A stretch of DNA of 45,379 nucleotides from a virus. The stretch lies in IMG/VR virus record IMGVR_UViG_3300020215_000016, positions 1 through 45,379 of that record. The stretch is one strand, 5' to 3'. The position numbers and the translations under genes are program-made. The notes under the pieces are model-generated. The model worked only from the letters and a program-made list of their open reading frames with translations, was not told where the DNA came from and made no database searches. Positions within the stretch are counted from its first letter, which is position 1. Every line of letters begins with the position of its first letter. Positions 1 to 45,379 of this stretch are shown in pieces.

Positions 1-127
1 AAGCACCCGCGGCGGTCGTCTTTGGGCGGCGAGTGACCGGACCTGGGCTATGGGGGCCGTCAGACGCATGGAGACGGCCCTGTGCGAGGCCGAGAGAGTA
101 GACGAACGGGAACGCCTGAACCCGGGC
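1..127. repeat. Terminal direct repeat, left copy (identical to 45253..45379)
   Basis: The first 127 bases are identical to the last 127 bases of the window, which implies a circular or terminally redundant 45,252-bp unit. Confidence 0.95.
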
Positions 128-4370: not shown

Positions 4371-5108
4371 ATGGAAATCATCCGCAACCGCCCTTCCCGG
4401 GCGCAGGCTCTTCCCATCGACGGCGCGGGCTCCGACATCCAGGCCGGCGCCGTGATCATGCCCGGCGTCACGGACGAGACCGATCGCTCCGTTTTTATCA
4501 AGGCCACGAGTGCGGGTGCCGATTCCTTCGGCCTCTTGGCTGAGCTCCACGACACCAGCGTTTCGGGCGATGCCGACCCCGAGGCCGGCACGATCTACCC
4601 GCTGCGCCAGATCGTTCCCTTCCTGCCTGGCTGCGAAGTCGCGGCTGAGATGGCAATCGACACCAGCAATGACGTGGATGTCGCCTCTGCCACGTCCACG
4701 GTCATCACGGTCACGTCCTTAGAGGACGACATCGAGGGCTCGTGGATTTACGTTTCTTCCGGCACTGGAGTCGGCCAGGTCGGCTACATCAAGGCGTCGG
4801 CCTCTGGCAGCTTCACGCTCAAGAGCGCCATGACGACGACCTTGGACAACACGTCCAAGCTGATCATCATGCGCCCGCTGTGCTGGCAGCTCGTCGAGCT
4901 GGACAGCACGGCCACCAAGATCAAGTCCACCGCCGCCGCAGGCAATCTCCCGTGGCGCGTCCTGGCCAACGAGATCAAGATCCCCGGTTCTGAGCTTTGG
5001 GTGCCGCTCGACCCGACGAAGCACCACAACCTGCAACTGGGCTCTGCGGTCCCTGGACTGCGGCAGATCCTCGTGCCGGCCAACACCTTCCACAACCCGC
5101 TCGACTAA
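4371..5108 (+). CDS. Hypothetical head-associated protein
   Basis: RBS gcaggagg lies upstream of the ATG. 245 aa, immediately upstream of the capsid gene. Confidence 0.7.
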   Translation: MEIIRNRPSRAQALPIDGAGSDIQAGAVIMPGVTDETDRSVFIKATSAGADSFGLLAELHDTSVSGDADPEAGTIYPLRQIVPFLPGCEVAAEMAIDTSNDVDVASATSTVITVTSLEDDIEGSWIYVSSGTGVGQVGYIKASASGSFTLKSAMTTTLDNTSKLIIMRPLCWQLVELDSTATKIKSTAAAGNLPWRVLANEIKIPGSELWVPLDPTKHHNLQLGSAVPGLRQILVPANTFHNPLD

Positions 5109-18082: not shown

Positions 18083-18182
18083 GGGCCAGATAGGGGCGAA
18101 ACCGCCACATTCGGCACCAATAAGCCACCACTGTGCTACCATTCTCAGACGGTGGCGGCGTACTCTCGACGGAGAAAAGCAT

Positions 18183-18233
18183 TTTGAGGGGCGTATGCCG
18201 AAAGGCGTGTGGGTTCAAGTCCCACCCCGCGCA
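18183..18233 (+). other. attP core candidate: 3' part of a class II (Leu-like) tRNA
   Basis: The sequence ttGAGgg gcgta t gcc-gaaa-ggc gt gtggg-ttcaagt-cccac cccgcgc a contains an anticodon-loop-like segment, long variable arm, T arm and 3' acceptor strand. No matching 5' acceptor or D arm lies upstream. It is 28 nt from the integrase stop. Confidence 0.6.
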
Positions 18234-18260
18234 TTCTTAAAACGTCGTCGAGAAAAGTAG

Positions 18261-19406
18261 TTAAGCAGGGCCGTCGGCCGAAGCACCTGGCCGGCGGCCT
18301 TGTGCATTTAGGGGCCAATTAGGGGCCGGAACGGGGAACTGGGAGGCAGAAAAGCGCCTATAAAGCACCTGATGGCTGGGCCTGACGTAGCGGAGCAGGC
18401 TTCGCGGGTCCTCCCAAATATGGGTCTTTAGCAGGTCCTCCATGTGCCCGCCGTCGGGTCCCTCTTGACCCAGATAGCGGTCCGCTGCGGTATGCCTGAA
18501 GCAGTGGAAGGTGATGTCATCCGGCAGCCCACCCTTCTTCCGCGCCGCCGTCATTTGATGCTGAATCGTTGGGATTGACCAGGGGAACACGCGGCCGGAA
18601 GCCTTGCGCGGGCCCATCATCTCCCTGGCCGCGGCGTTGATCGGGAAGACGCAGTCATAAACCGTCTTAGCCCTTGTCTTCCTGAGCTCCGCAGGGATAC
18701 GGCCCATCGTCCCAGATCCAATGATCTTCCCTGCTGCGTCACGGATATCAATATCCCAGACCCAGCGCCAGTCTAAAATGCAAATCTCGTTGATTCGCAG
18801 GAAGGTGTTTAGGGAGAAGGTGCCTGTTCGGTAGAGCCCTTCATATGCGTTTGCAAATAGTCTTTCGATCTCGGAGTCGAGCAGCGGGCGTCCACCACCG
18901 CCGCCGCTCAGCGGCTTCTTGACTGACTTCGCTGGGCTCTTTGTGATGTCACCGGAGCGGACGGCGGCGTTGAAGAAGGCGCACACCTGCCGGAAGTACA
19001 TCAGTGGGGCATCGCCGCTGTAGTTGTCCTCAAGCCAGTGCTTGTAGTCTTGGATGTTGTCTTCCGTGATCGCGGCCAAAGCTATTGCCCCGTGCTTTTC
19101 AACGAAGGGGGATAGGGCCGGCGTGTCGAAGCGCCGGAAGGTCTCGGGGTTGTCGCGGCTTTTGGTTTTGGAGTAAAGGTTCCAACGCTCCAGAACCGTA
19201 ATGGCTGTGTTCAGACGCTCGGCGGGGGGGAGACCGACATCCATCCGCTCAAAGTCGCGGCGCTTTTCTTTAGCGAATTCCAGGGCGTCGTCCCGACGGA
19301 CGAACACCTCCTGACTCGTCCCAAACTTCCCAGACCACCGGCAGCGCCAATTCTCGCCGCCGCGCTCTACCCAGACCTTCCAGCCTCTAGCCTTTCGTGG
19401 GCTCAT
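18261..19406 (-). CDS. int: Tyrosine integrase
   Basis: Contains LRINEICIL (Arg), FHCFRHTAA (HxxR) and LLRYVRP (Tyr). The start is taken as MSPRKARGWKVW. The 476-aa track ORF extends into the upstream gene. Confidence 0.85.
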   Translation of the reverse strand: MSPRKARGWKVWVERGGENWRCRWSGKFGTSQEVFVRRDDALEFAKEKRRDFERMDVGLPPAERLNTAITVLERWNLYSKTKSRDNPETFRRFDTPALSPFVEKHGAIALAAITEDNIQDYKHWLEDNYSGDAPLMYFRQVCAFFNAAVRSGDITKSPAKSVKKPLSGGGGGRPLLDSEIERLFANAYEGLYRTGTFSLNTFLRINEICILDWRWVWDIDIRDAAGKIIGSGTMGRIPAELRKTRAKTVYDCVFPINAAAREMMGPRKASGRVFPWSIPTIQHQMTAARKKGGLPDDITFHCFRHTAADRYLGQEGPDGGHMEDLLKTHIWEDPRSLLRYVRPSHQVLYRRFSASQFPVPAPNWPLNAQGRRPGASADGPA

Positions 19407-21428: not shown

Positions 21429-21633
21429 TGTCGCCAATGCTCGTGCTGCCCTTGACGATCAGCGCCGCCGCAAGCTGCGCCGCAACGATTTGATGATGAG
21501 GTTGATCGTTATCCATAGACGCTCCTAACAACAGAGATAAACCACGCCAATGGAAAAGAACCCCTGCCCCAAATTTAAGGGAGCGGAGAGTCGCAAGGGA
21601 ACGAAAGTTCATGGAGCCTCCCGGCTTCACCAT
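21355..21633 (-). CDS. Hypothetical protein (alternative start 21516, preceded by aggag)
   Basis: The ATG at 21633 is the end of the inverted CCACGCCAATG copy. An internal ATG at 21516 has a good RBS. Coding status is uncertain. Confidence 0.3.
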   Translation of the reverse strand: MVKPGGSMNFRSLATLRSLKFGAGVLFHWRGLSLLLGASMDNDQPHHQIVAAQLAAALIVKGSTSIGDIKGAVLTYYRVLGELRSSQQGKQR

Positions 21634-21768
21634 TGGCGTGGCCTTGTCTCTCCGTCTCCCGATTTTAACATAACCCGGTCGGAGCAATCCGACCTCCATT
21701 TAAGGATGGCCCAATGGTCGAAGCCTGTAAACCCCCACGCGTGTTTAGCTGCCGCGGGTGCCAAATGA
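21550..21768 (+). CDS. Hypothetical protein
   Basis: The ATG is the end of the second CCACGCCAATG copy. The stop overlaps the HTH gene start (ATGA). The amino-acid composition is unconvincing. Confidence 0.3.
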   Translation: MEKNPCPKFKGAESRKGTKVHGASRLHHWRGLVSPSPDFNITRSEQSDLHLRMAQWSKPVNPHACLAAAGAK

Positions 21769-22676: not shown

Positions 22677-23603
22677 ATGGAAAACGTAATCGTAGAGCGC
22701 CCGACGCTGACGGCGCCCGAAGTCAAGGCCGGGATCGACCTTATTCTACAGGTCATGAAGTCCGTCATGAAGAACGGCGTGGACTACGGCGTGGTCCCTG
22801 GCTGCGGCGACAAGCCGACGCTCCTCAAGCCTGGCTCCGAGAAGATCCTGGCCACGTTCAAGATCGGCGTAGACCCCGAGGTCGAGGACCTGTCTACCGA
22901 GGACGAGGCCCGCTTCCGCGTGAAGACCCGCCTTTTCCATGAAGTGACGGGCATCGAGCTTGGGAAGGGCGTCGGCGAGGCCAGCTCGCACGAGGAGAAG
23001 TACAAGTGGCGCAAGGCCGTCTGCGATGAGGAATTCGCGGAGACCGCAGAGGACCGCAAGCGCCTCGCCTGGAAACCCGAGTGGAAGGGCGGTAGCAGGA
23101 CCGGCAAGTACATCCAGGTCAAGCAGGTCCGCACAAGCAAAGCCGACGTCTCCAACACCGTCTTGAAGATGGCCAAGAAGCGGTCACAGATCGACGGGAC
23201 GCTAACGGCAACCGCCGCCAGCGCCATCTTCAATCAGGACTTGGAGGACATGGAGGAGGAGATCCGGGACGCTGTGATCGGTGACGCGCCTCCTACCAAA
23301 GAGCCTATCAAGGAGCCCGAGGCCAAGCCCACGCAGCAGTCTCCGGTGACTAGCCAGGCCCAGTCGGAAGGCCTCCAGATCAAGAGCGTCCGTAAGCTCA
23401 AGAGCGGAACGTCTGACAAAGGCGAATGGAACCTCTGGCTCATCACCGACGCTGCGGGGACCGAGTACAAGACGTTCGACGACAGCAGCGCCGCTCTCGC
23501 CAAGACCGCCCACGAGCAGAAGAAGGGCGTCAAGATCGAGTCTGCCGCTGGACCAAAGGGCAACGACCTCAAGAGCATCGTGATGGTGGGGGAGTCGGCA
23601 TAA
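22677..23603 (+). CDS. Single-strand annealing protein (ERF/Rad52-superfamily-like)
   Basis: RBS aggagga. GDKPTLLKPGSEKILATF and SNTVLKMAKKRSQIDGTLTATAASAIFNQD resemble SSAP signatures (from memory). An exonuclease gene lies nearby. Confidence 0.55.
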   Translation: MENVIVERPTLTAPEVKAGIDLILQVMKSVMKNGVDYGVVPGCGDKPTLLKPGSEKILATFKIGVDPEVEDLSTEDEARFRVKTRLFHEVTGIELGKGVGEASSHEEKYKWRKAVCDEEFAETAEDRKRLAWKPEWKGGSRTGKYIQVKQVRTSKADVSNTVLKMAKKRSQIDGTLTATAASAIFNQDLEDMEEEIRDAVIGDAPPTKEPIKEPEAKPTQQSPVTSQAQSEGLQIKSVRKLKSGTSDKGEWNLWLITDAAGTEYKTFDDSSAALAKTAHEQKKGVKIESAAGPKGNDLKSIVMVGESA

Positions 23604-24347
23604 ATGAATCTGACACCGAACGGTGTCTCGCGCCTGTTACCCCGGCGCATCGTAGTCGAGAGTGAGCCCACAGAGGCGAACTCTGCCTGCTGCTATGGCG
23701 AAGGCAGACCCGTAGACGGCCTCTCGACGAACCGCCGCCTGATTCTCTCCATCAGAGCGGCCAATTTGAGTATGGCGGCGCGGCGAATGCCAGCACGACG
23801 GAATGCTGGGGCCACCGGGGCCGCAGGACACACGCGCACCTCTAAGCTGGAGGGGGTGGGATACCAGACGCTAGCTTGCCAATGGAATTCCTACCTGTCG
23901 GGGCAGCACCGACCCATACTCTTAAATTCCTGTAGCCACTCCCACCCGGAGCAGGCGAACGAAACGGGAGGGGTGCCTTGTCTTCATCGACGCGCCCTCC
24001 CACCCAGCGCGTCCATGCAGGCGTCCACCCTGCGGCAGGATTTGGCGACGGCCTGCCTGCCCGCGTTGGCTCACTTTTGCGACACGGAGCGGCTTGGCGC
24101 TGTTAGGCAAGGCTCGTCACGGCTGGGCCGGGCTCGGCTCGGCATGGCTCGGAAAGGCACGTCGCGTCATGGCAGGGCATGGATTCGTTTTTGTGGGAAT
24201 GACTGGTGACGAAATTTGCTGGCACTTGTCAGGGGGTCTGGCCTGTGGCCGACCCAGCATTGTCACAAAGCACATCCGCGGGCACGATGGTCAAATTGGG
24301 CTCATATCGCTCTGCATGAGCCACAAAGACGCATACAAGGAGGCGGA
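23604..24347 (+). other. Hairpin-dense region of doubtful coding status (candidate structured RNA or protein-binding repeat region)
   Basis: The only ORF (23604..24209) is Arg/Cys/Ser-rich with weaker GC3 than its neighbours. There are several perfect 6-8-bp stems, TCCCACCC twice plus its complement, and GGCAnGGC repeats at 24094-24182. Confidence 0.4.
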
Positions 24348-24902
24348 ATGCAGCAGGTAATTGACGTGGAGATAACGGGAATCTCAGCCCTTCTCCAAAA
24401 CAACTGGCAGGGCAGCGAAGAGCAAATGATCAGCAAGGGGAAGCGCAAGACTTCGGGTACTGCAAACAACGCCGATGAGTGGCGCGGCAAGCTATACCCG
24501 ATCCAGGGCGGACTTGGTCATCCAACAGCTGCCGTTGAGAACGCGATCATCAAGGCAGCCAGAGACTTCAAGGCCGACAAGCGCCGGACCATGGCGGAGA
24601 CAGTGAAAGCGACGGTGTTCTGTAACGAACCTTACGCGGTTCTTGTGGGGAAACTAGAGCCCGACCTGATCGACCGATCATCGATAGTCAATCCAAACAC
24701 TAAAGGCCGCGGCTTTCGCTATCGCCCTCTTTTCAATCCCGGTTGGAAGGCTCGATTTAGCGTCACCCTGGCAGACACGGAACTCGTCGAGGTTGATCGC
24801 CTTAAAGAGATGATCGACCACGCCGGGGCCCGCATTGGCATCGGCGACTGGCGGCCAAAGTTTGGGCGATTCTACGTTTCAGAGTTTAAGGTGAGAGGTT
24901 GA
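24348..24902 (+). CDS. Hypothetical protein (cassette inside the recombination module)
   Basis: Strong RBS caaggagg. 184 aa. The upstream part of track ORF 24216 looks non-coding. Confidence 0.7.
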   Translation: MQQVIDVEITGISALLQNNWQGSEEQMISKGKRKTSGTANNADEWRGKLYPIQGGLGHPTAAVENAIIKAARDFKADKRRTMAETVKATVFCNEPYAVLVGKLEPDLIDRSSIVNPNTKGRGFRYRPLFNPGWKARFSVTLADTELVEVDRLKEMIDHAGARIGIGDWRPKFGRFYVSEFKVRG

Positions 24903-24975
24903 TTTTCAGAAGGACGATTCTTGGCCAGGCTGGACTAGGCAGGGCCTGGCACGGCGCGGCCTGGTAGGGCATGGC

Positions 24976-25569
24976 ATGGATACTTTAACCGAACTAACAC
25001 AGCGCGGCGAGGAGTTTTTCCAGCAAGGCGTGAAGATGCCCCGCCTCACTGAGATCATGCAGGACCTTGGGATTGTTGACTACAGCAAGATACCGAAGGA
25101 TACCCGCAATTGGGCTATGGACCGTGGTAGCAAGGTGCATAAAACGTGCGAGCTTTGGGATCTCGGCACCCTGCGCGTCGAAACGCTGGACGAGCGCCTG
25201 GTGCCATACCTTGATGGCTGGCAGCGGGCCGTCGAGGACCTGCGGCTGACCTTTACCCACATCGAGGTCCGCATGGTCAACGAGACCTATTGGTACTGCT
25301 GCAAGCCTGACCGGGTGGGCGCGGCTGACGGGGAGCCTGCCGTCATCGAGATCAAGACCGGCGAGGTTCCTTGGTGGGTCGGCATGCAGCTTTCAGCCCA
25401 GGCCGCCTGCATGCCCGATGGACACACCTATCGCCGCATCGCCATCGGTCTTCCTGGGGATGGAACGTATAAGCCGGTCTACCCGGACAAACTCCCAGAC
25501 GGCAGAAACGACCGCGCGATGATCCTGACTGGGATTTCACTCTACAACCGCAAGCAGAACAATAAATAG
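24976..25569 (+). CDS. PD-(D/E)XK (RecB/Cas4-like) exonuclease
   Basis: GSKVHK ... CKPDRVG ... AVIEIKTG gives the D...ExK nuclease core. It is the partner of the annealing protein. Confidence 0.65.
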   Translation: MDTLTELTQRGEEFFQQGVKMPRLTEIMQDLGIVDYSKIPKDTRNWAMDRGSKVHKTCELWDLGTLRVETLDERLVPYLDGWQRAVEDLRLTFTHIEVRMVNETYWYCCKPDRVGAADGEPAVIEIKTGEVPWWVGMQLSAQAACMPDGHTYRRIAIGLPGDGTYKPVYPDKLPDGRNDRAMILTGISLYNRKQNNK

Positions 25570-29183: not shown

Positions 29184-29350
29184 TGGCCTACGCGAGCAAG
29201 GTAGTCCGCGCCGTTGCTAAGGCTATCGTCGAGGTTCAGACGTCACGGGATCATGAGGCTTGCCGAGTTCCTGCTTTCTGCGAAGCCCGGGCGGCGATCC
29301 GCGCCTACCTCAAGGCGTCGAAGCCCAAGCCCGATACGGAGGGAGCGTGA
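29183..29350 (+). CDS. 55-aa hypothetical protein ending KPKPDTEGA
   Basis: TAATG and GTGA overlaps. Its 3' end is the 30-nt junction repeat. Confidence 0.4.
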   Translation: MAYASKVVRAVAKAIVEVQTSRDHEACRVPAFCEARAAIRAYLKASKPKPDTEGA

Positions 29351-31035: not shown

Positions 31036-31248
31036 CTATTTCTTAGCCCGCTGCTTCTTCCCCGCCCGATGCTTTGCGGAGTCCTTCCTGTTTTGTGCGC
31101 GGGCGGCGTCCGGGTGACTCTTACGCCACTTCCTGACGTAGTCGCGGGTGCGGCACTTGGCCGAGAAGTATTTGGGCGCGGGAATAGTGGCTGGCTTTCC
31201 GCAGCCGCAAGCGCAGAGCATGGCGTAAGTATAGCCCGAGTCTTTCAC
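31036..31248 (-). CDS. Small basic Cys-rich protein (likely start 31221, possibly leaderless)
   Basis: Sequence MLCACGCGKPATIPAPKYFSAKCRTRDY... with a Lys/Arg-rich tail. The ATG at 31221 lies 6 nt after a TATACT -10 element. Confidence 0.55.
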   Translation of the reverse strand: MKDSGYTYAMLCACGCGKPATIPAPKYFSAKCRTRDYVRKWRKSHPDAARAQNRKDSAKHRAGKKQRAKK

Positions 31249-31256
31249 GGCGTCAA
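31228..31256 (-). promoter_or_regulatory. Leftward promoter TTGACG-17 nt-TATACT
   Basis: Reverse complement of cgtcaa (31251-31256) and agtata (31228-31233). It shares the 12-mer GCTATACTTACG with the rightward promoter. Confidence 0.55.
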
Positions 31257-31277
31257 TGTCGAGGGCAAGAGCAGGTC

Positions 31278-31305
31278 TTGACGTAAGTAAGATATATGCT
31301 ATACT
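31278..31305 (+). promoter_or_regulatory. Rightward promoter TTGACG-16 nt-TATACT overlapped by a palindrome
   Basis: ttgacg at 31278-31283 and tatact at 31300-31305. ACGTAAGTA (31281-31289) and TACTTACGT (31302-31310) form a 9-bp inverted repeat. Confidence 0.6.
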
Positions 31306-31405
31306 TACGTTGCGAGGGAGGTAAAGGTTTCAGGCCGCTGGCAAAAACTCCCTCGCAGGATGGATGCCAGCGGCCTCTTATTTAGACGGGAATGCGAGGG
31401 AGAAA

Positions 31406-31558
31406 ATGAAAAACAAGCAGAGCAGCAAGCCCGCCGTCACTAAGGAAGCGCCCGCCGCGATCGTCCTGTACGACGGCTGCTATTCCGACGGGAGCAACTG
31501 CGAGACGTTCCCGGCTTGCAATCACGAGGCGAAGAAGCCGCCGCAGGGAGGGCGCTGA
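31406..31558 (+). CDS. 50-aa hypothetical protein
   Basis: RBS gagggag. It is the first ORF after the rightward promoter. Confidence 0.45.
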   Translation: MKNKQSSKPAVTKEAPAAIVLYDGCYSDGSNCETFPACNHEAKKPPQGGR

Positions 31559-33581: not shown

Positions 33582-34122
33582 AACAAAAGATCGCGACACG
33601 TTCATCTGCGCCTACTGCAAAGGTGTTTTTCCTGTTCTTCGGAATCCAAGAATAACATGCAGCATGAGGTGCAAAATGGCCGACCTAGCAAAGAATCGAC
33701 CGTCCCGTTATGGCGTTGCGCTGAAAACATTTTGGGAGCGGGTTAGGAAAACAGATTCTTGCTGGATTTGGACTGGCGGGAGGGATGGCCGCGGATACGG
33801 GCGCATTGGGCCGGTAGGTGCATTAAAAGAGGACTATGCCCATCGGCATTCTTATCGAATTCATAAGGGTGAGATACCACACGGCTTGGCCATCGACCAT
33901 CTTTGTCAGAACAAATGGTGCGTAAACCCAAACCATCTTGAGGCCGTAACTCAGACTGAAAACACTAGGCGGTGGCGAGTCACCGTATCGGCCTGCAAGC
34001 GCGGGCATCAGAGAACGAAAGAGAACACATATACACGCCCTTCTAATGGCTCGACATCATGTATCCCGTGCATTAAGTTGAGGCGGCTCTGCTACTCCGT
34101 CGGCGCGAGGCTGCAACCTTGA
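33574..34122 (+). CDS. HNH homing-type endonuclease
   Basis: CWIWTGG ... YAHRHSY ... IDHLCQNKWCVNPNHLEAVTQTENTRR is an HNH_3-like pattern. Local G+C is clearly lower than in the flanks. Confidence 0.75.
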   Translation: MDKTKDRDTFICAYCKGVFPVLRNPRITCSMRCKMADLAKNRPSRYGVALKTFWERVRKTDSCWIWTGGRDGRGYGRIGPVGALKEDYAHRHSYRIHKGEIPHGLAIDHLCQNKWCVNPNHLEAVTQTENTRRWRVTVSACKRGHQRTKENTYTRPSNGSTSCIPCIKLRRLCYSVGARLQP

Positions 34123-34955
34123 GAGGATCGTTCTACTTCCAGCACGACTACAACGCTAGGCGTGACGGGAAGATCGCCAACATGATCAGAACTCACGGAC
34201 TCCTCGGCTATGGCCTTTATTGGGCGTTAGTCGAGGACCTGTATGAAGCCGGTGGCCGGATTGATCGGGACTACGACAGACTTGCATACGACCTTCGCGT
34301 GGATAAGGCCATGGTCCAGTCCGTAATTGAGGACTTTGACCTCTTCTACTCGGAGGATGGGGGCAAGCAGTTCGGGTCCCGGTCCATCGACCGCCGACTC
34401 CAGGAACGCCGGGAGAAGATCAGGCAGGCGCAAGAGGCGGGGCGTTTAGGTGGCTTAAAACGCTCCGATCAAGCGACCGCTAAGCGACCGCTAAGCGACC
34501 GCTTAACGACCGCTAAGCTAGGAGAGGAAAGGAAAGGAGAGGAGAGGAAAGAAATAACGGATAGAGGGCTTGGCTTTCCTTGGCCTCCCGGATTCCTGTC
34601 GTTTTGGGACCTCTACCCCAAGAAACTCAACCAGCACGCCGCCGCCGAGGCATGGAACCTTCTCGCGCCTCAAGAGCCACTACTGTCGATCATCATGGCC
34701 GCCGTCGTCGCGCAGTCGGCCCACTGGCGCGACCATAAGACGCCGTTTGAGTACATCCCCGGCCCGGCCAGGTGGCTCAATGAGCATCGCTGGACCGACG
34801 TCCTGGACATCCAGCTGCCATCCACCCCCAAGCCCCCGCAATGCCCCCGCTGCCGGATCTCGGGCCCAGACGCGAGGCCTACCGCCAGGCTGAGAGACGG
34901 TAGCCCAGCCTGCCAACGCTGCGCCGATGAGGAGGCGGTCCTAAGTGGAGACTGA
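34119..34955 (+). CDS. Replication organiser (DUF4373/DnaD-like)
   Basis: FYFQHDYNARRDGKIANMIRTHGLLGYGLYWALVEDLY matches the Lin1244/DUF4373 N-terminal pattern. The gene contains the iterons. Confidence 0.65.
   Translation: MRGSFYFQHDYNARRDGKIANMIRTHGLLGYGLYWALVEDLYEAGGRIDRDYDRLAYDLRVDKAMVQSVIEDFDLFYSEDGGKQFGSRSIDRRLQERREKIRQAQEAGRLGGLKRSDQATAKRPLSDRLTTAKLGEERKGEERKEITDRGLGFPWPPGFLSFWDLYPKKLNQHAAAEAWNLLAPQEPLLSIIMAAVVAQSAHWRDHKTPFEYIPGPARWLNEHRWTDVLDIQLPSTPKPPQCPRCRISGPDARPTARLRDGSPACQRCADEEAVLSGD
34473..34516. repeat. Four tandem 11-bp iterons (GCGACCGCTAA), candidate origin
   Basis: The copies read gcgaccgctaa, gcgaccgctaa, gcgaccgctta, acgaccgctaa. A 40-nt purine tract follows at 34521-34560. 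Confidence 0.85.
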
Positions 34956-36998: not shown

Positions 36999-37681
36999 GC
37001 GAAGGACTAGAACTGCTAAGCGACGAAGACGCCGCTAAGTATTGGTGGCGCAAGTGCGGCGAGTTGGAGAAGGAGCTAGAGGCAGTCAAGAAGGAGTTGG
37101 CTCAGCGAGAGAGGTTCGTAGAGGCTGGCCGAGAACTGAACGCGGAGCTTGATGATGAGCTTCAGCGGGTCAAGCGGGAGCGGGACGCCTGGCAGGAACG
37201 AGAGAAGCGCATCTGCGTGTTCGGGCACATCGCCGCGCCGGGCAAGACCAAAGAGAACTGCGACGAGTGCCGCGTCATCCAAGAGGTGAACGCCAAGCTG
37301 AAAGCCGCCGAGTCCTCTTTGGCCGCCGCGCGGAAGGCGATGGGGGAGAAGGACGAGGTGATCCGTAGCGCCGCCATCGAACTCCACTGCGCCCCGGACT
37401 GGAATAAGGTCCAGGCTGCCGTGCGCCGTCTTGTCGCCGCCCTCCCCGCCGTGGACGCGGGCAAGCCCGCCTGCAAGCACGGCGTCATCCGCGTCGGTCA
37501 CACGATCGGCGGTGCTGACACCTGCGGTGAGTGTGGAGCGGTTTTGAAGGACGCGGGCACGACGGAGCCGAAGCCTTATGGGTGCGGGAAGAAGTTTGCC
37601 TTCACCGGCGGCATCTGTGGCACGGAATATCTTTGCAGGGATTGTGTCTTCAAGCCCAAGCCCGATACGGAGGGAGCGTGA
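36995..37681 (+). CDS. Coiled-coil protein with a Cys-rich C-terminal half
   Basis: 228 aa ending KPKPDTEGA, within the 30-nt junction repeat. Confidence 0.6.
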   Translation: MSEGLELLSDEDAAKYWWRKCGELEKELEAVKKELAQRERFVEAGRELNAELDDELQRVKRERDAWQEREKRICVFGHIAAPGKTKENCDECRVIQEVNAKLKAAESSLAAARKAMGEKDEVIRSAAIELHCAPDWNKVQAAVRRLVAALPAVDAGKPACKHGVIRVGHTIGGADTCGECGAVLKDAGTTEPKPYGCGKKFAFTGGICGTEYLCRDCVFKPKPDTEGA

Positions 37682-38707: not shown

Positions 38708-39357
38708 AAATCTGCGGAAAATGCAGTGCCCCGATAGAAAGCCAGAGAGAGATCCACGAAAACCGTTGCAGGAGATGCATCAGCGGCAGCAAGCGGGAAT
38801 ACAAAACGAAAAACCCCTGGGTCGTTATGCTTTCGAGAGCGCGGCAACGTTGTGAATACCCGAAAAGCCACGGTTATTCCAGGTATGGCGGCAGAGGCAT
38901 CCGGTGTGTGCTGACGATCCCTGAGGTAAAGATGCTGTGGGAACGGGACGGGGCGGCCAACATGAAGAAGCCCAGCCTAGACCGAATCAACAAAGACGGC
39001 AATTACGTTTTGGAGAACTGCCGGATCATTGAGCATTCGGAAAATGCAAAGCAGGCATCCCAGGGCATCCCGTGGCGGCAGAGATGCAGGAAGCTTAGCC
39101 CCGAGCAGCTTCAGGAGATAAGAGATAGGCCGGATATTGCGGCTCCTGTGTTGGCCAAGAAATTTGGTGTTAGCCCGCAGGCTGTGCGTAGGATCAGGGG
39201 GCTCAGGGCAGTTCTGCTTGAAAAGCTTGTGGAATCGGTTGGCCGCGCCCTTAAGTCCAAGGTTCTGCTGGATGGGTTCGCCAACTACTCCGAGGCTATC
39301 GCTGACCTGCGCGAGTCATACGCCGCCCTGCGCTCTGGATCGGAGGGGAAATCGTGA
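38704..39357 (+). CDS. HNH-type homing endonuclease with a C-terminal HTH
   Basis: YSRYGGRGIRCV ... PSLDRINKDGNYVLENCRIIEHSEN, followed by LAKKFGVSPQAVRRI. The first ~150 nt are lower in GC. Confidence 0.65.
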   Translation: MKICGKCSAPIESQREIHENRCRRCISGSKREYKTKNPWVVMLSRARQRCEYPKSHGYSRYGGRGIRCVLTIPEVKMLWERDGAANMKKPSLDRINKDGNYVLENCRIIEHSENAKQASQGIPWRQRCRKLSPEQLQEIRDRPDIAAPVLAKKFGVSPQAVRRIRGLRAVLLEKLVESVGRALKSKVLLDGFANYSEAIADLRESYAALRSGSEGKS

Positions 39358-45174: not shown

Positions 45175-45379
45175 GGACCGCGACGTGGTGCGCTTCGACA
45201 AGCTCAGGGCCAATATCGGTGAACACTTCGCTGATTACGTCCTGGTCGTTCGAAGCACCCGCGGCGGTCGTCTTTGGGCGGCGAGTGACCGGACCTGGGC
45301 TATGGGGGCCGTCAGACGCATGGAGACGGCCCTGTGCGAGGCCGAGAGAGTAGACGAACGGGAACGCCTGAACCCGGGC
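45167..45379 (+). CDS. Hypothetical protein spanning the circular junction (continues to the TAA at 137-139)
   Basis: ATG at 45167 (ATGGCTGA overlap). The frame continues through the repeat and stops at 137-139, giving TAATG coupling to the portal gene. 74 aa in total. Confidence 0.5.
   Translation, partial: MAEDRDVVRFDKLRANIGEHFADYVLVVRSTRGGRLWAASDRTWAMGAVRRMETALCEAERVDERERLNPG
45253..45379. repeat. Terminal direct repeat, right copy (identical to 1..127)
   Basis: Exact 127-nt identity with the window start. Confidence 0.95.

What the first reader, a model, noticed from the sequence alone, without database searches (positions are those of the whole stretch)
23604..24347. 745-bp hairpin-dense, poorly coding insert between the annealing protein and the next gene
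The rest of the genome is packed with start-stop overlaps, but this stretch holds only one ORF (23604..24209). Its product is Arg/Cys/Ser-rich, its third-position GC is close to bulk composition (neighbouring genes are clearly higher), and it runs into a repeat tract. The DNA has many perfect short-loop stems: GACACC/GGTGTC (23612-23627), GTCGAGAG/CTCTCGAC (23655-23662 with 23721-23728), CCAGCA/TGCTGG (about 23790-23809), GACGCGC/GCGCGTC (23989-23995 with 24007-24013), a compound hairpin at 24206-24266, and GGCTCAT/ATGAGCC (24299-24322). The octamer TCCCACCC occurs twice (23940-23947, and 23998-24005 exposed in the loop of the GACGCGC stem). Its exact complement GGGTGGGA sits at 23854-23861, which allows alternative or pseudoknot pairing. 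This could be a large structured phage RNA, a protein-binding or recombination site, or an unusual protein.
Basis: partly seen in the sequence, partly recalled or inferred. Interest (0 to 1): 0.7.

Follow-up and report, generated by a model that had tools for sequence, protein, structure and literature searches.

The report
Phage VIPR guide-RNA locus, not a gene
The flagged stretch is the non-coding flank of a VIPR system, a recently described phage RNA-guided DNA-silencing system: its "repeat tract" is a guide RNA of GGCNN units, the next gene is the Vipr protein that reads it, and a small swappable structured RNA of unknown function sits upstream.

Summary
The key feature, though, is the "repeat tract" mentioned only in passing.

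- **Repeat tracts.** Positions 24091-24182 hold 18 in-phase GGYNN pentamers. A second tract of 11 units lies at 24923-24979. Both are on the + strand and flank the "next gene" (24348-24902).
- **The gene.** Its product matches the solved SUSP1 Vipr protein (PDB 36pp; profile E = 6e-30). It models as a Cas7/Csm3-like RAMP, and the G-loop DWR and thumb Arg that contact GGY are conserved.
- **Wider pattern.** A DNA-only scan of IMG/VR for (GGCNN)7GGC gave at least 120 loci. Of these, 84 encode a Vipr homologue, and 377 of 395 nearby arrays share its strand.
- **Conclusion.** This is a VIPR locus (bioRxiv 10.64898/2026.04.26.720920): vrRNA1, vipr, vrRNA2.
- **ORF 23604-24209.** It is most likely spurious.
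- **Extra element.** Inside it, 23764-23922 is a discrete structured RNA cassette with 45 pairs, 14 compensatory and none broken, compared with one unrelated phage contig. A sister phage has swapped the cassette out, and Rfam has no match.
- **Not found.** No natural target, no conserved 3' tail and no vap gene.

Verdict: a new member of a known kind, plus one candidate new RNA.

The parts
23604..23763 (+). Leader segment A. It follows the SSAP stop codon directly and contains the hairpins 23612-27 and 23655-62/23721-28. Function unknown, and specific to this phage lineage.
   Evidence: RNA fold z = -2.90, with 2 of 200 shuffles as good. It is 93.6% identical to sister contig L147. No similarity to any other VIPR locus held or to GenBank phages.
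23764..23922 (+). Discrete structured RNA cassette of about 160 nt. P1 (23768-75 with 23914-21) closes a four-way junction. Not in Rfam; function unknown.
   Evidence: Against L149 4063-4222 there are 45 consensus pairs, 14 with both sides changed, 2 changed on one side (G-C to G-U) and 0 broken. Controls with the 3' partner slid by 1-3 columns give 0-1 compensatory pairs, and 0 of 500 shuffles reach the observed values. The single-sequence MFE matches the consensus structure except for one extra pair in each of two helices, z = -2.46. Substitutions fall 16/17/16 across codon positions. G-U pairs occur only when read on the + strand. In sister phage L147 exactly this block is replaced by unrelated sequence. 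Rfam gives nothing.
23923..24090 (+). Leader segment B. It contains both TCCCACCC copies and the GACGCGC stem. Function unknown; it may hold a promoter or processing signal for vrRNA1.
   Evidence: RNA fold z = -1.79. It lies in the 99.5%-identical block shared with L147. No homologue elsewhere. The consensus scan found no sigma-70-like promoter.
24091..24182 (+). vrRNA1 repeat tract: 18 in-phase pentamers plus a terminal GG. Thirteen units are GGC and five are degenerate (TGT, GTC x3, GGA). The NN code reads TT GC TA AA TC AC TG CG TC TC AT TC AA AC GC AT AG AT.
   Evidence: Tracts of the same kind sit upstream of vipr in L001, L143 and L148.
24183..24347 (+). Spacer between vrRNA1 and vipr. 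It holds the hairpins at about 24217-24256 and 24299-24322, and the vipr Shine-Dalgarno AAGGAGG at 24338-44. It could be a 3' tail of vrRNA1, but that is not shown.
   Evidence: RNA fold z = -1.27, not significant. Not conserved: in L143 and L148 the array ends about 20 nt before the vipr start. No similarity to the sequence after vrRNA2 or to other loci.
24348..24902 (+). vipr gene (184 aa), a RAMP-family protein. By homology it binds one GGY per protomer pair along the vrRNA.
   Evidence: A profile of 28 homologues matches PDB 36pp_D 'SUSP1 Vipr protein' at E = 6e-30 over the full length. The single sequence gives E = 3.7e-8. The AF2 model has pLDDT 88.5. Top Foldseek hits are Csm3/Cas7 chains at E of about 4e-7. 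The GIGDWRPKFGRF G-loop is invariant or nearly so. It also matches phrog_4652.
24923..24979 (+). vrRNA2 repeat tract: 11 in-phase pentamers plus a terminal GG. The NN code reads CA TG TA AG CT AC GC CT AG AT AT. Its last unit overlaps the ATG (24976) of the downstream exonuclease gene.
   Evidence: L001 has a 29-unit tract in the same downstream position. L143 has an 11-unit tract about 70 nt upstream of its exonuclease homologue.
23604..24209 (+). ORF of 201 codons called by gene finders; most likely not a gene. It runs across the leader, the RNA cassette and the whole of vrRNA1.
   Evidence: An exhaustive HMMER search of 1.84 billion representatives found only itself, a repetitive protein, and P0053, which lies over the cassette copy in L149. 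No Pfam, PHROG or NCBIfam family. GC2 is 0.57-0.60 against about 0.42 in neighbouring genes. An open stretch this long occurs in 4.9% of dinucleotide shuffles. Similar ORFs are called over the arrays in L143 and L001.

Best explanation
The 745-bp stretch is the upstream non-coding flank of a phage-encoded VIPR (Viral Interference Programmable Repeat) system. It is not a gene and not a single large RNA.

**Layout of the locus.** Leader with a swappable structured-RNA cassette (23604-24090), vrRNA1 (18 GGYNN units, 24091-24182), spacer with the ribosome-binding site, vipr (24348-24902), vrRNA2 (11 units, 24923-24979). It sits inside the phage recombination operon, between the annealing-protein gene and the exonuclease gene.

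**Proposed mechanism, taken from the characterised SUSP1 and P. fulva systems.**
1. The tracts are transcribed on the + strand.
2. Vipr protomers polymerise along each tract, one per pentamer. They sequester every GGY through the G-loop (D167-W168-R169 here) and the thumb (R126 here).
3. The variable NN dinucleotides are left exposed.
4. The NN dinucleotides pair with double-stranded DNA that carries the same dinucleotides separated by one skipped base (NNxNNx...).
5. The result is an R-loop triplex that blocks transcription of the target, most likely a competing phage or prophage.

**Shown here.** The protein homology and fold, the conserved GGY-contact residues, the repeat architecture with its strand and position, its co-occurrence with Vipr across divergent phages, and the absence of self-targets.

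**Inferred.** Transcription and processing of the tracts, RNP formation, DNA silencing, and the identity of the target.

**ORF and cassette.** The 201-codon ORF is a by-product of stop-poor, GC-rich non-coding sequence. The cassette at 23764-23922 is a separate structured RNA of unknown role.
For: **Protein.**
- The A1 profile matches PDB 36pp 'SUSP1 Vipr protein' at E = 6e-30, residues 4-182 against 2-190.
- The direct alignment puts R126 on SUSP1 R138 and D167/W168/R169 on D177/W178/R179. The cryo-EM paper names these as the G1/G2/Y3 contacts.
- The AF2 model has pLDDT 88.5. All of the top 50 Foldseek matches listed are subunit chains of type III (Csm/Cmr) or type VII CRISPR effector complexes.

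**RNA.**
- There are exactly two in-phase GGYNN tracts in 45 kb, both on the + strand and both flanking vipr. That is 6 pattern matches against 0.00 expected.
- They fit the published definition: YNNGG repeats, at least 4 units and typically 9-16, flanking vipr.

**Association.**
- A scan of IMG/VR for the DNA pattern alone returned at least 120 loci. Of these, 84 encode a Vipr HMM hit.
- 377 of 395 arrays within 1.5 kb lie on the vipr strand. Unit composition is G 0.96, G 0.96, C 0.89 / T 0.09, then near-uniform N N.
- Relatives at 61-73% identity (L001, L143, L144, L148) keep GGC and differ freely in NN.

[quoted passage not shown] The paper also found none.

**Non-coding status of the ORF.**
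Against: - No RNA data exist for this phage, so vrRNA ends and expression are unverified.
- No natural target was found. Exact 11-unit NNx patterns for both guides gave 0 hits in IMG/VR and in 185,579 GTDB species genomes. The search was exact-match only, whereas natural targets are accepted at 80% or more.
- The invariant structured 3' tail described for type II vrRNAs was not found. The sequences after the two tracts are unrelated to each other and to those of relatives.
- vrRNA1 has 18 units, above the 9-16 reported, and five of them lack GGY.
- No vap accessory gene could be identified by synteny.
- No sigma-70-like promoter was detected.
- The 201-codon ORF has a TAAATG junction with a GGAG upstream and stays open in L147 after the block swap. 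A small lineage-specific protein therefore cannot be fully excluded.
Confidence: 0.9

Rival explanations
1. ORF 23604-24209 is a real, fast-evolving phage protein, for example a VIPR accessory protein. The hairpins and repeats would then simply be features of its coding sequence.
For: - The start codon abuts the SSAP stop (TAAATG) and a GGAG lies about 10 nt upstream.
- The frame stays open (204 aa) in L147 although about 165-180 nt were replaced, with a net +9 nt.
- A 201-codon open stretch is reached by only 4.9% of shuffles.
- P0053 in L149 shares 51% amino-acid identity over 55 residues.
Against: - No homologue among 1.84 billion representative proteins beyond itself, one repetitive protein and P0053.
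- No Pfam, PHROG or NCBIfam family.
- Window-versus-L149 substitutions are spread 16/17/16 over codon positions. All 30 differences in paired columns preserve base pairing. That is an RNA signature, not a protein one.
- GC2 is 0.57-0.60 against about 0.42 in real genes.
- The last 40 codons are the vrRNA tract. Gene callers make the same kind of ORF over arrays in L143 and L001.
Confidence: 0.06
2. The whole 745 bp is one large structured non-coding RNA, with long-range or pseudoknot pairing such as GGGTGGGA:TCCCACCC.
For: - 23604-24090 folds better than all 100 shuffles, z = -3.14.
- The three sub-segments each score z between -1.8 and -2.9.
- One sub-segment has strong covariation support.
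Against: - The region is modular. The central 160 nt is exchanged as a unit in L147 while the flanks stay 94-99.5% identical. It also occurs alone in L149 without the flanks.
- GGGTGGGA is already paired within the cassette (P4), with covariation.
- 24091-24347 has no excess structure, z = -0.21.
- The flanks have no homologues, so no covariation test is possible.
- No Rfam family matches.
Confidence: 0.05
3. The GGCNN tracts act at the DNA level, for example as iterons or binding sites for a replication, partition or recombination protein, or as G-rich structure-forming DNA. On this view they are not guide RNAs.
For: - The tracts sit in the recombination module between an annealing protein and an exonuclease.
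- In both the window and L143 a tract lies just upstream of the exonuclease gene.
Against: - The tracts track the Vipr gene, not the SSAP. None of 21 SSAP-homologue loci has an array, while 84 of 120 array loci have Vipr.
- Strand bias is 377 to 18 in favour of the vipr strand, which argues for a transcribed element.
- A 5-bp period is too short for a 20-kDa protein per unit on duplex DNA, but it matches one RAMP protomer per 5 nt of RNA as seen by cryo-EM.
- For the homologous SUSP1 system, the RNAs were sequenced and co-purified with Vipr.
Confidence: 0.03
4. The cassette 23764-23922 is a miniature mobile DNA element (MITE-like, with P1 as its terminal inverted repeat) and has no RNA function. 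Its presence in the VIPR leader would be incidental.
For: - It is precisely bounded. A sister phage has swapped it out.
- It is found in an unrelated intergenic context in L149, without Vipr.
- It is absent from the 89 of the 120 array loci searched with the covariance model (L023-L111) and from the close Vipr relatives.
Against: - Compensatory changes occur in all internal helices that vary, not only in the terminal stem: 14 pairs across 8 of 9 helices.
- G-U pairs are tolerated only on the + strand, which points to selection on a + strand transcript.
- Both copies share the orientation of the surrounding genes.
Confidence: 0.15

Closest known systems
VIPR systems (Vipr + vrRNA), described in bioRxiv 10.64898/2026.04.26.720920 and 10.64898/2026.04.26.720927; the type II SUSP1 and P. 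fulva systems are the characterised examples
   Same: - A single small RAMP protein of about 20 kDa, homologous to SUSP1 Vipr, with the same G-loop DWR and thumb Arg.
- Tandem GGY/NN pentamer tracts on the same strand flanking the gene, one upstream and one downstream.
- It is phage-encoded.
- GGY is conserved and NN is hypervariable among relatives.
- No self-targeting.
   Different: - Only the C-terminal third aligns to SUSP1 Vipr by single-sequence search. It probably belongs to another of the seven types, but the type could not be assigned.
- No shared structured 3' tail or pseudoknot.
- vrRNA1 has 18 units, five of them degenerate.
- vrRNA2 runs into the start codon of the next gene.
- No vap gene was recognised.
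- There is a leader of about 490 nt, containing an unrelated structured RNA cassette, in front of vrRNA1.
Class 1 CRISPR backbone RAMPs (Cas7 / Csm3 / Cmr4) on crRNA
   Same: The fold is the same: RRM core, glycine-rich loop and thumb (Foldseek E of about 4e-7). The principle is also shared: protomers polymerise along a guide RNA and flip out bases periodically.
   Different: - No CRISPR repeat-spacer array, no other cas genes and no second RRM domain.
- The period is 5 nt with 3 bases sequestered, against 6 nt with 1 flipped.
- The guide information is noncontiguous (NN only).
TRAP (trp RNA-binding attenuation protein) bound to 11 (G/U)AG triplets separated by 2-3 nt
   Same: This is a formal resemblance recalled from memory. 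A conserved triplet plus a 2-nt spacer is repeated about 11 times, and each repeat is read by one subunit of a homo-oligomer.
   Different: The fold is unrelated. TRAP is a closed ring and its spacers carry no information. Here the spacers are the information and the oligomer is an open helical filament. This is analogy only; no membership is claimed.
Rfam families, for the cassette 23764-23922
   Same: None. No family reaches even E = 10 over the cassette in either copy.
   Different: The cassette is a four-way-junction RNA of about 160 nt. Its conserved junction strands are GCGAAUG and AGGACACA, and it has a palindromic GCUAGC apical loop. It matches no described family in Rfam 15.

Membership tests
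VIPR system | Encodes a Vipr protein, a RAMP homologue related in sequence to characterised Vipr | tested here: met
   The profile of 28 homologues matches PDB 36pp_D 'SUSP1 Vipr protein' at E = 6e-30 over the full length. The single sequence gives E = 3.7e-8.
VIPR system | RAMP architecture: single RRM core, glycine-rich loop and thumb | tested here: met
   The AF2 model has pLDDT 88.5 and pTM 0.82, with a beta-hairpin at 107-129 (the thumb) and a C-terminal GIGDWRPKFGRF loop. Top Foldseek hits are Csm3/Cas7 chains of type III and type VII complexes.
VIPR system | Residues that read GGY in SUSP1 Vipr are conserved (H17, R138, D177, W178, R179) | tested here: met
   R126 aligns with R138 and D167/W168/R169 with D177/W178/R179. 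R126 and R169 are invariant across the 28 homologues; D167 and W168 are the consensus residues of the GIGDWRPK motif. H17 aligns with N18 here and with H in relatives P0017, P0023 and P0024.
VIPR system | Tandem YNNGG (GGY/NN) pentamer tracts of at least 4 units (typically 9-16), next to vipr on the same strand | tested here: met
   An 18-unit tract lies at 24091-24182 and an 11-unit tract at 24923-24979. Both are on the + strand and they are the only such tracts in the window. The criteria are quoted.
VIPR system | GGY conserved while NN is hypervariable across related loci | tested here: met
   Over arrays near 88 Vipr genes the unit composition is G 0.96, G 0.96, C 0.89 / T 0.09, with N4 and N5 each spread across all four bases. 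Positions 1-3 are partly enriched by the detection rule. Relatives at 61-73% protein identity have different NN strings.
VIPR system | Invariant, structured 3' tail (a pseudoknot in the SUSP1 clade) after the repeat tract | tested here: inconclusive
   The sequences after the two tracts are unrelated to each other and to those of relatives. 24179-24347 folds no better than shuffles, z = -1.27. In L143 and L148 the tract ends about 20 nt before vipr. Several tracts in this clade end in ...GGCAT GG, which may replace a tail. The paper describes the tail only for type II.
VIPR system | Associated vap accessory gene (typical, but not universal) | tested here: inconclusive
   SSAP, the exonuclease and the next two genes have no homologues next to vipr in 124 other VIPR loci, apart from an exonuclease homologue 1.4 kb downstream in L143. 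The exonuclease has only a sub-threshold Cas4 match, E = 0.006.
VIPR system | Encoded by a phage or provirus | tested here: met
   The window has a 127-nt terminal direct repeat, so it is a complete contig of 45,252 bp. Neighbouring genes match PHROG families. Related loci come from IMG/VR.
VIPR system | vrRNAs are expressed as RNAs of about 100 nt and co-purify with Vipr | not testable with these tools
   This needs small-RNA sequencing and a pull-down. It has been shown only for SUSP1, P. fulva and some type III/V systems.
VIPR system | The NN code matches natural DNA targets under the 1-nt skip rule, with no self-target at 80% or more | tested here: inconclusive
   No self-target: the best window match is 15 of 22 (0.68). 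No target among 1.3 Mb of held loci. Exact 11-unit patterns gave 0 hits in IMG/VR and GTDB genomes. An approximate (80% or more) search of large collections was not possible.
CRISPR-Cas | Repeat-spacer array and additional cas genes | tested here: not met
   No direct-repeat family of CRISPR type was found in the window. No cas family among the neighbours apart from the sub-threshold Cas4-like signal.
Any Rfam RNA family | Covariance-model match at the gathering score | tested here: not met
   There are 0 matches at gathering score in the whole window. At E up to 10 over 23300-24700 the only hit is a chance lncRNA match. The equivalent regions of L149 and L147 also give nothing meaningful.
Protein-coding gene (ORF 23604-24209) | Protein-like conservation: homologues, and an excess of third-position substitutions | tested here: not met
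   Only one partial 'homologue' was found, and it overlies the same RNA element in L149. Substitutions are spread 16/17/16 by codon position.

The most novel reading that the evidence does not exclude
The 160-nt cassette at 23764-23922 may be a new class of modular, horizontally exchanged phage ncRNA. It is a four-way junction supported by 14 compensatory pairs against a copy in an unrelated phage contig. Its position in the leader of a vrRNA may not be accidental. It could control transcription, processing or stability of vrRNA1, or act as a decoy or counter-measure in inter-phage conflict. A second possibility is that this Vipr clade uses tail-less vrRNAs capped by a conserved terminal ...GGCAT GG unit and embedded directly in mRNA leaders. 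In that case Vipr binding would also regulate translation of the adjacent genes (vipr itself and the exonuclease).
Probability: 0.2. Interest if true: 0.7.

Novelty: new member of a known kind. Interest (0 to 1): 0.5.

Why it matters
VIPR was described only in 2026, as a noncontiguous RNA-guided DNA-recognition system proposed to predate CRISPR. This window adds an unannotated, complete-genome example from an environmental phage with about 61% GC.

- **Architecture.** It differs from the characterised type II systems. The locus is minimal (vipr plus two vrRNAs), has no recognisable vap gene and no conserved tail, and is inserted between the annealing protein and the exonuclease of the recombination operon.
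- **Annotation.** Gene callers routinely place false ORFs over vrRNA tracts, and databases name Vipr only as 'hypothetical protein'.
- **Detection.** A pure DNA pattern, (GGCNN)n, retrieves Vipr loci with about 70% precision (84 of 120). This is a simple way to find such systems.
- **The cassette.** It is a cheap, testable candidate for a new phage RNA.

Tried and rejected
- **Rfam.** Gathering-score scan of the whole window and E up to 10 on the region gave nothing. No tRNA or tmRNA.
- **TRAP-like or iteron ideas.** I considered these for the 5-nt repeats before the PDB hit identified Vipr. I dropped them as membership claims.
- **Target search.**
  - Local scan of the window and 1.3 Mb of held loci with skip 0-3 found nothing above chance. 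Skip 3 only finds the arrays themselves.
  - Exact 11-unit NNx patterns for vrRNA2 and for vrRNA1 units 4-14 gave 0 hits in IMG/VR and in GTDB genomes.
  - The reverse test used 633 guides from other VIPR loci against this phage. Skip 1 was no better than skip 0 or 2.
- **More copies of the cassette.**
  - Two motif patterns in IMG/VR gave 0 hits.
  - The JGI metagenome scan gave four AT-rich chance matches.
  - Covariance model R1 over 98 sources found only the window lineage and L149.
  - BLAST of the region against 50,697 GenBank phages gave no match.
  - The word-indexed protein search with the cassette translation found no candidate.
- **Other checks.**
  - The replacement block in L147 shows no fold signal, z = -0.27, and no Rfam hit.
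  - Flanks and tail have no similarity to any other VIPR locus.
  - The promoter scan found none, and the only terminator-like hairpins are on the - strand.
  - VIPR type I-VII could not be assigned, because no supplementary tables are held.
Full report
**1. The observation**

I read 23000-25000 directly. ORF 23604-24209 (201 aa) is the only long + strand ORF between the annealing-protein gene, which ends at 23603, and the next gene.

'Hairpin-dense' is supported only moderately.
- As RNA, 23604-24090 folds with z = -3.14, and none of 100 shuffles folds as well. Its three sub-segments score -2.90, -2.46 and -1.79.
- I scanned the whole genome in 160-nt windows on both strands. The mean z was -0.08, the sd 1.12 and the 5th percentile -2.11. 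Two windows of the region score -2.8 (rank 23 and 25 of 1132 windows), but other places in the genome score lower.
- The part with the 'compound hairpin', 24179-24347, is not significant (z = -1.27).
- Codon-position GC of the ORF is 0.61/0.60/0.69. The annealing-protein gene has 0.59/0.41/0.85. The odd value is the high GC2, and the next gene itself has a GC3 of only 0.64.

**2. The overlooked feature**

The 'repeat tract' at the end of the ORF is a run of 18 pentamers in perfect 5-nt register (24091-24182). Thirteen of them begin with GGC. A second run of 11 units lies at 24923-24979. Both are on the + strand, and they bracket the next gene, 24348-24902. The pattern GGYNN x5+GG occurs six times in the window, all within these two tracts. 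None is expected in 100 dinucleotide-preserving shuffles.

A related IMG/VR contig, L001, encodes a protein 61% identical to the product of 24348-24902. It has 21- and 29-unit tracts in the same two positions.

I then scanned IMG/VR for the bare DNA pattern (GGCNN)7GGC.
- An HMM of the 24348-24902 protein family finds a homologue in 84 of these loci.
- 377 of 395 arrays within 1.5 kb lie on the same strand as that gene.
- 33 loci have an upstream array, 75 a downstream one and 25 both.
- Unit composition is G 0.96, G 0.96, C 0.89 / T 0.09, followed by two variable bases.
- In contrast, none of 21 loci retrieved through the annealing protein has an array.

The tracts therefore belong with the downstream gene and not with the recombination genes.

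**3. Identity**

The protein has no Pfam or NCBIfam family. Its only library match is PHROG 4652, of unknown function.

A profile of 28 homologues matches one solved structure, PDB 36pp 'SUSP1 Vipr protein', at E = 6e-30 over the full length. The single sequence matches it at E = 3.7e-8. An AlphaFold2 model (pLDDT 88.5) finds Csm3/Cas7 backbone subunits of type III and type VII CRISPR complexes as its best structural neighbours, at E of about 4e-7.

The literature search led to two 2026 preprints that define VIPR systems.
- The system is a phage-encoded RAMP protein, Vipr, together with vrRNAs made of 9-16 YNNGG repeats that flank the vipr gene.
- One Vipr protomer binds per repeat and sequesters GGY.
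- The variable NN dinucleotides pair with double-stranded DNA while skipping every third base. This silences transcription of competing phages.

The residues reported to read GGY in SUSP1 Vipr align with residues here. R138 aligns with R126, and D177/W178/R179 align with D167/W168/R169, within the conserved GIGDWRPKFGRF motif of the family. H17 aligns with N18, which is H in some relatives.

Close relatives at 61-73% identity keep GGC and differ freely in NN. [quoted passage not shown] The authors also found no self-targets.

I therefore file the locus as a VIPR system: vrRNA1 at 24091-24182, vipr at 24348-24902 and vrRNA2 at 24923-24979.

**4. How this locus differs from the characterised systems**

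- The sequences following the two tracts are unrelated to each other and to those of relatives. In L143 and L148 the upstream tract ends about 20 nt before the vipr start. No invariant structured tail could be shown. Several tracts in this clade end in ...GGCAT GG instead.
- vrRNA1 has 18 units, five of them degenerate.
- The last unit of vrRNA2 overlaps the ATG (24976) of the exonuclease gene. L143 also has a tract just upstream of its exonuclease homologue.
- No neighbour is conserved next to vipr in other loci, so no vap gene is identified. The exonuclease has only a sub-threshold Cas4-like signal. It is more simply read as the partner of the annealing protein.
- The VIPR type (I-VII) could not be assigned.
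- No natural target was found with exact-match searches. Approximate searches of large collections were not possible.

**5. The rest of the 745 bp**

Three contigs encode the identical Vipr protein. L145 and L146 are identical to the window across the aligned 1.5 kb. L147 is nearly identical except for one block, window ~23768-23931, which is replaced by unrelated sequence.

An exhaustive HMMER search with the first 162 codons of the ORF, against 1.84 billion representative proteins, found only itself, a repetitive protein and an 84-aa ORF, P0053. P0053 lies over an intergenic stretch of a different phage contig, L149, which has no Vipr.

Window 23762-23922 and L149 4063-4222 align without internal gaps.
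- The RNAalifold consensus has 45 pairs in nine helices. Fourteen pairs are changed on both sides, two on one side (G-C to G-U) and none is broken. All 30 differences that fall in paired columns keep the pairing.
- Sliding the 3' partners by 1-3 columns leaves 0-1 compensatory pairs. None of 500 shuffles reaches the observed values.
- The single-sequence MFE fold of the window copy matches this consensus except for one extra pair in each of two helices.
- The 49 differences fall 16/17/16 on the three codon positions of the ORF frame. This is not a protein pattern.
- G-U pairs exist only if the + strand is read.

Positions 23764-23922 are therefore a discrete, exchangeable structured RNA. Rfam 15 has no match in either copy. 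A covariance model built from the two copies finds no further copy in 98 sources, which include 89 array loci (L023-L111) and the close Vipr relatives. Pattern scans of IMG/VR and JGI metagenomes found none.

There are caveats. Only two lineages are known, and the structure was derived from the same two sequences. The two leader pieces on either side (23604-23763 and 23923-24090) have no homologues, so they remain unexplained.

**6. Is the ORF a gene?**

Against:
- It has no homologues.
- Its GC2 is atypical.
- It shows RNA-type rather than protein-type substitutions.
- Its last 40 codons are the vrRNA tract.
- Similar false ORFs are called over arrays in L143 and L001.

For:
- It has a TAAATG junction with a GGAG upstream.
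- The frame stays open in L147.
- An open stretch of 201 codons is reached by only 4.9% of shuffles.

I put about 6% on a real protein.

**7. Verdict**

The finding is real but was misread. It is the upstream flank of a VIPR locus, a kind of system already described in 2026. That makes it a new member of a known kind, with some architectural differences.

The one element that may be new is the 160-nt cassette. Mechanistic steps beyond homology and architecture are inferred from the SUSP1 and P. fulva work, not shown here. These steps are transcription, RNP assembly, DNA silencing and the identity of the target.

Noticed in passing
window 1-127 and 45253-45379: A perfect 127-nt terminal direct repeat. 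The window is a complete, circularly closed or terminally redundant phage genome of 45,252 bp.
   Followed up: no
window 22700-23378 versus L147 584-1188: The sister contig L147 is 94-99.5% identical on both sides. It carries a different N-terminal and central part of the annealing protein (a Pfam RecT, 284 aa) in place of the window's 308-aa phrog_10048 protein. This is a second mosaic swap, next to the cassette swap.
   Followed up: partly
window 24923-24979; L143 4762-4816: In both the window and L143 (73% Vipr identity) a vrRNA-type tract ends at or about 70 nt before the start of the PD-(D/E)XK exonuclease gene, although three extra genes separate vipr from it in L143. In both contigs the VIPR genes and their tracts lie between a RecT-type annealing-protein gene and this exonuclease gene. 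The exonuclease has a weak Cas4-like signal, E = 0.006 and below cutoff.
   Followed up: partly
window 24171-24182, 24970-24979; L143 2949-2963, 4807-4818; L144 about 4623-4672: Tracts of this Vipr clade tend to end in ...GGCAT(GGCAT)GG. The last six units of the two window tracts are also alike: AC GC AT AG AT against AC GC CT AG AT AT. Across 327 arrays from diverse loci, the last unit is GGYAG followed by GC in about 39% of cases, against 7% AG at internal units. This suggests clade-specific conserved 3' ends.
   Followed up: partly
window 34471-34551: Four tandem 11-nt repeats (AAGCGACCGCT) are followed directly by an AGGAG/AGGAA-rich tract, inside ORF 34119-34955. The neighbouring 34241 windows fold unusually well on both strands, z about -4.3. 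This could be an origin or iteron region.
   Followed up: no
window 29321-29350 and 37652-37681: A perfect 30-nt direct repeat, AAGCCCAAGCCCGATACGGAGGGAGCGTGA, occurs 8.3 kb apart. It ends in a Shine-Dalgarno-like GGAGG.
   Followed up: no
window 18161-18320 (+), 21521-21680 (both strands), 31201-31440 (both strands): These are among the most strongly structured 160-nt windows of the genome, with z from -3.0 to -4.9, stronger than anything in the flagged region. 21521 lies in the lower-GC stretch between divergent small ORFs near the HTH genes.
   Followed up: no
window 38803-39045; L149 3588-3830: L149, the only other contig carrying the RNA cassette, has an HNH-type endonuclease gene immediately upstream of the cassette. 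The window encodes a 58%-identical homologue, but 15 kb away from its own cassette.
   Followed up: no
GenBank phages, e.g. Gordonia phage Ecliptus OP820472 10383-10940; Mycobacterium phage Brocalys NC_031262 32930-33463: Vipr homologues at 27-30% identity are present in cultured actinobacteriophages. All but one of the 14 records annotate the gene as 'hypothetical protein'.
   Followed up: no
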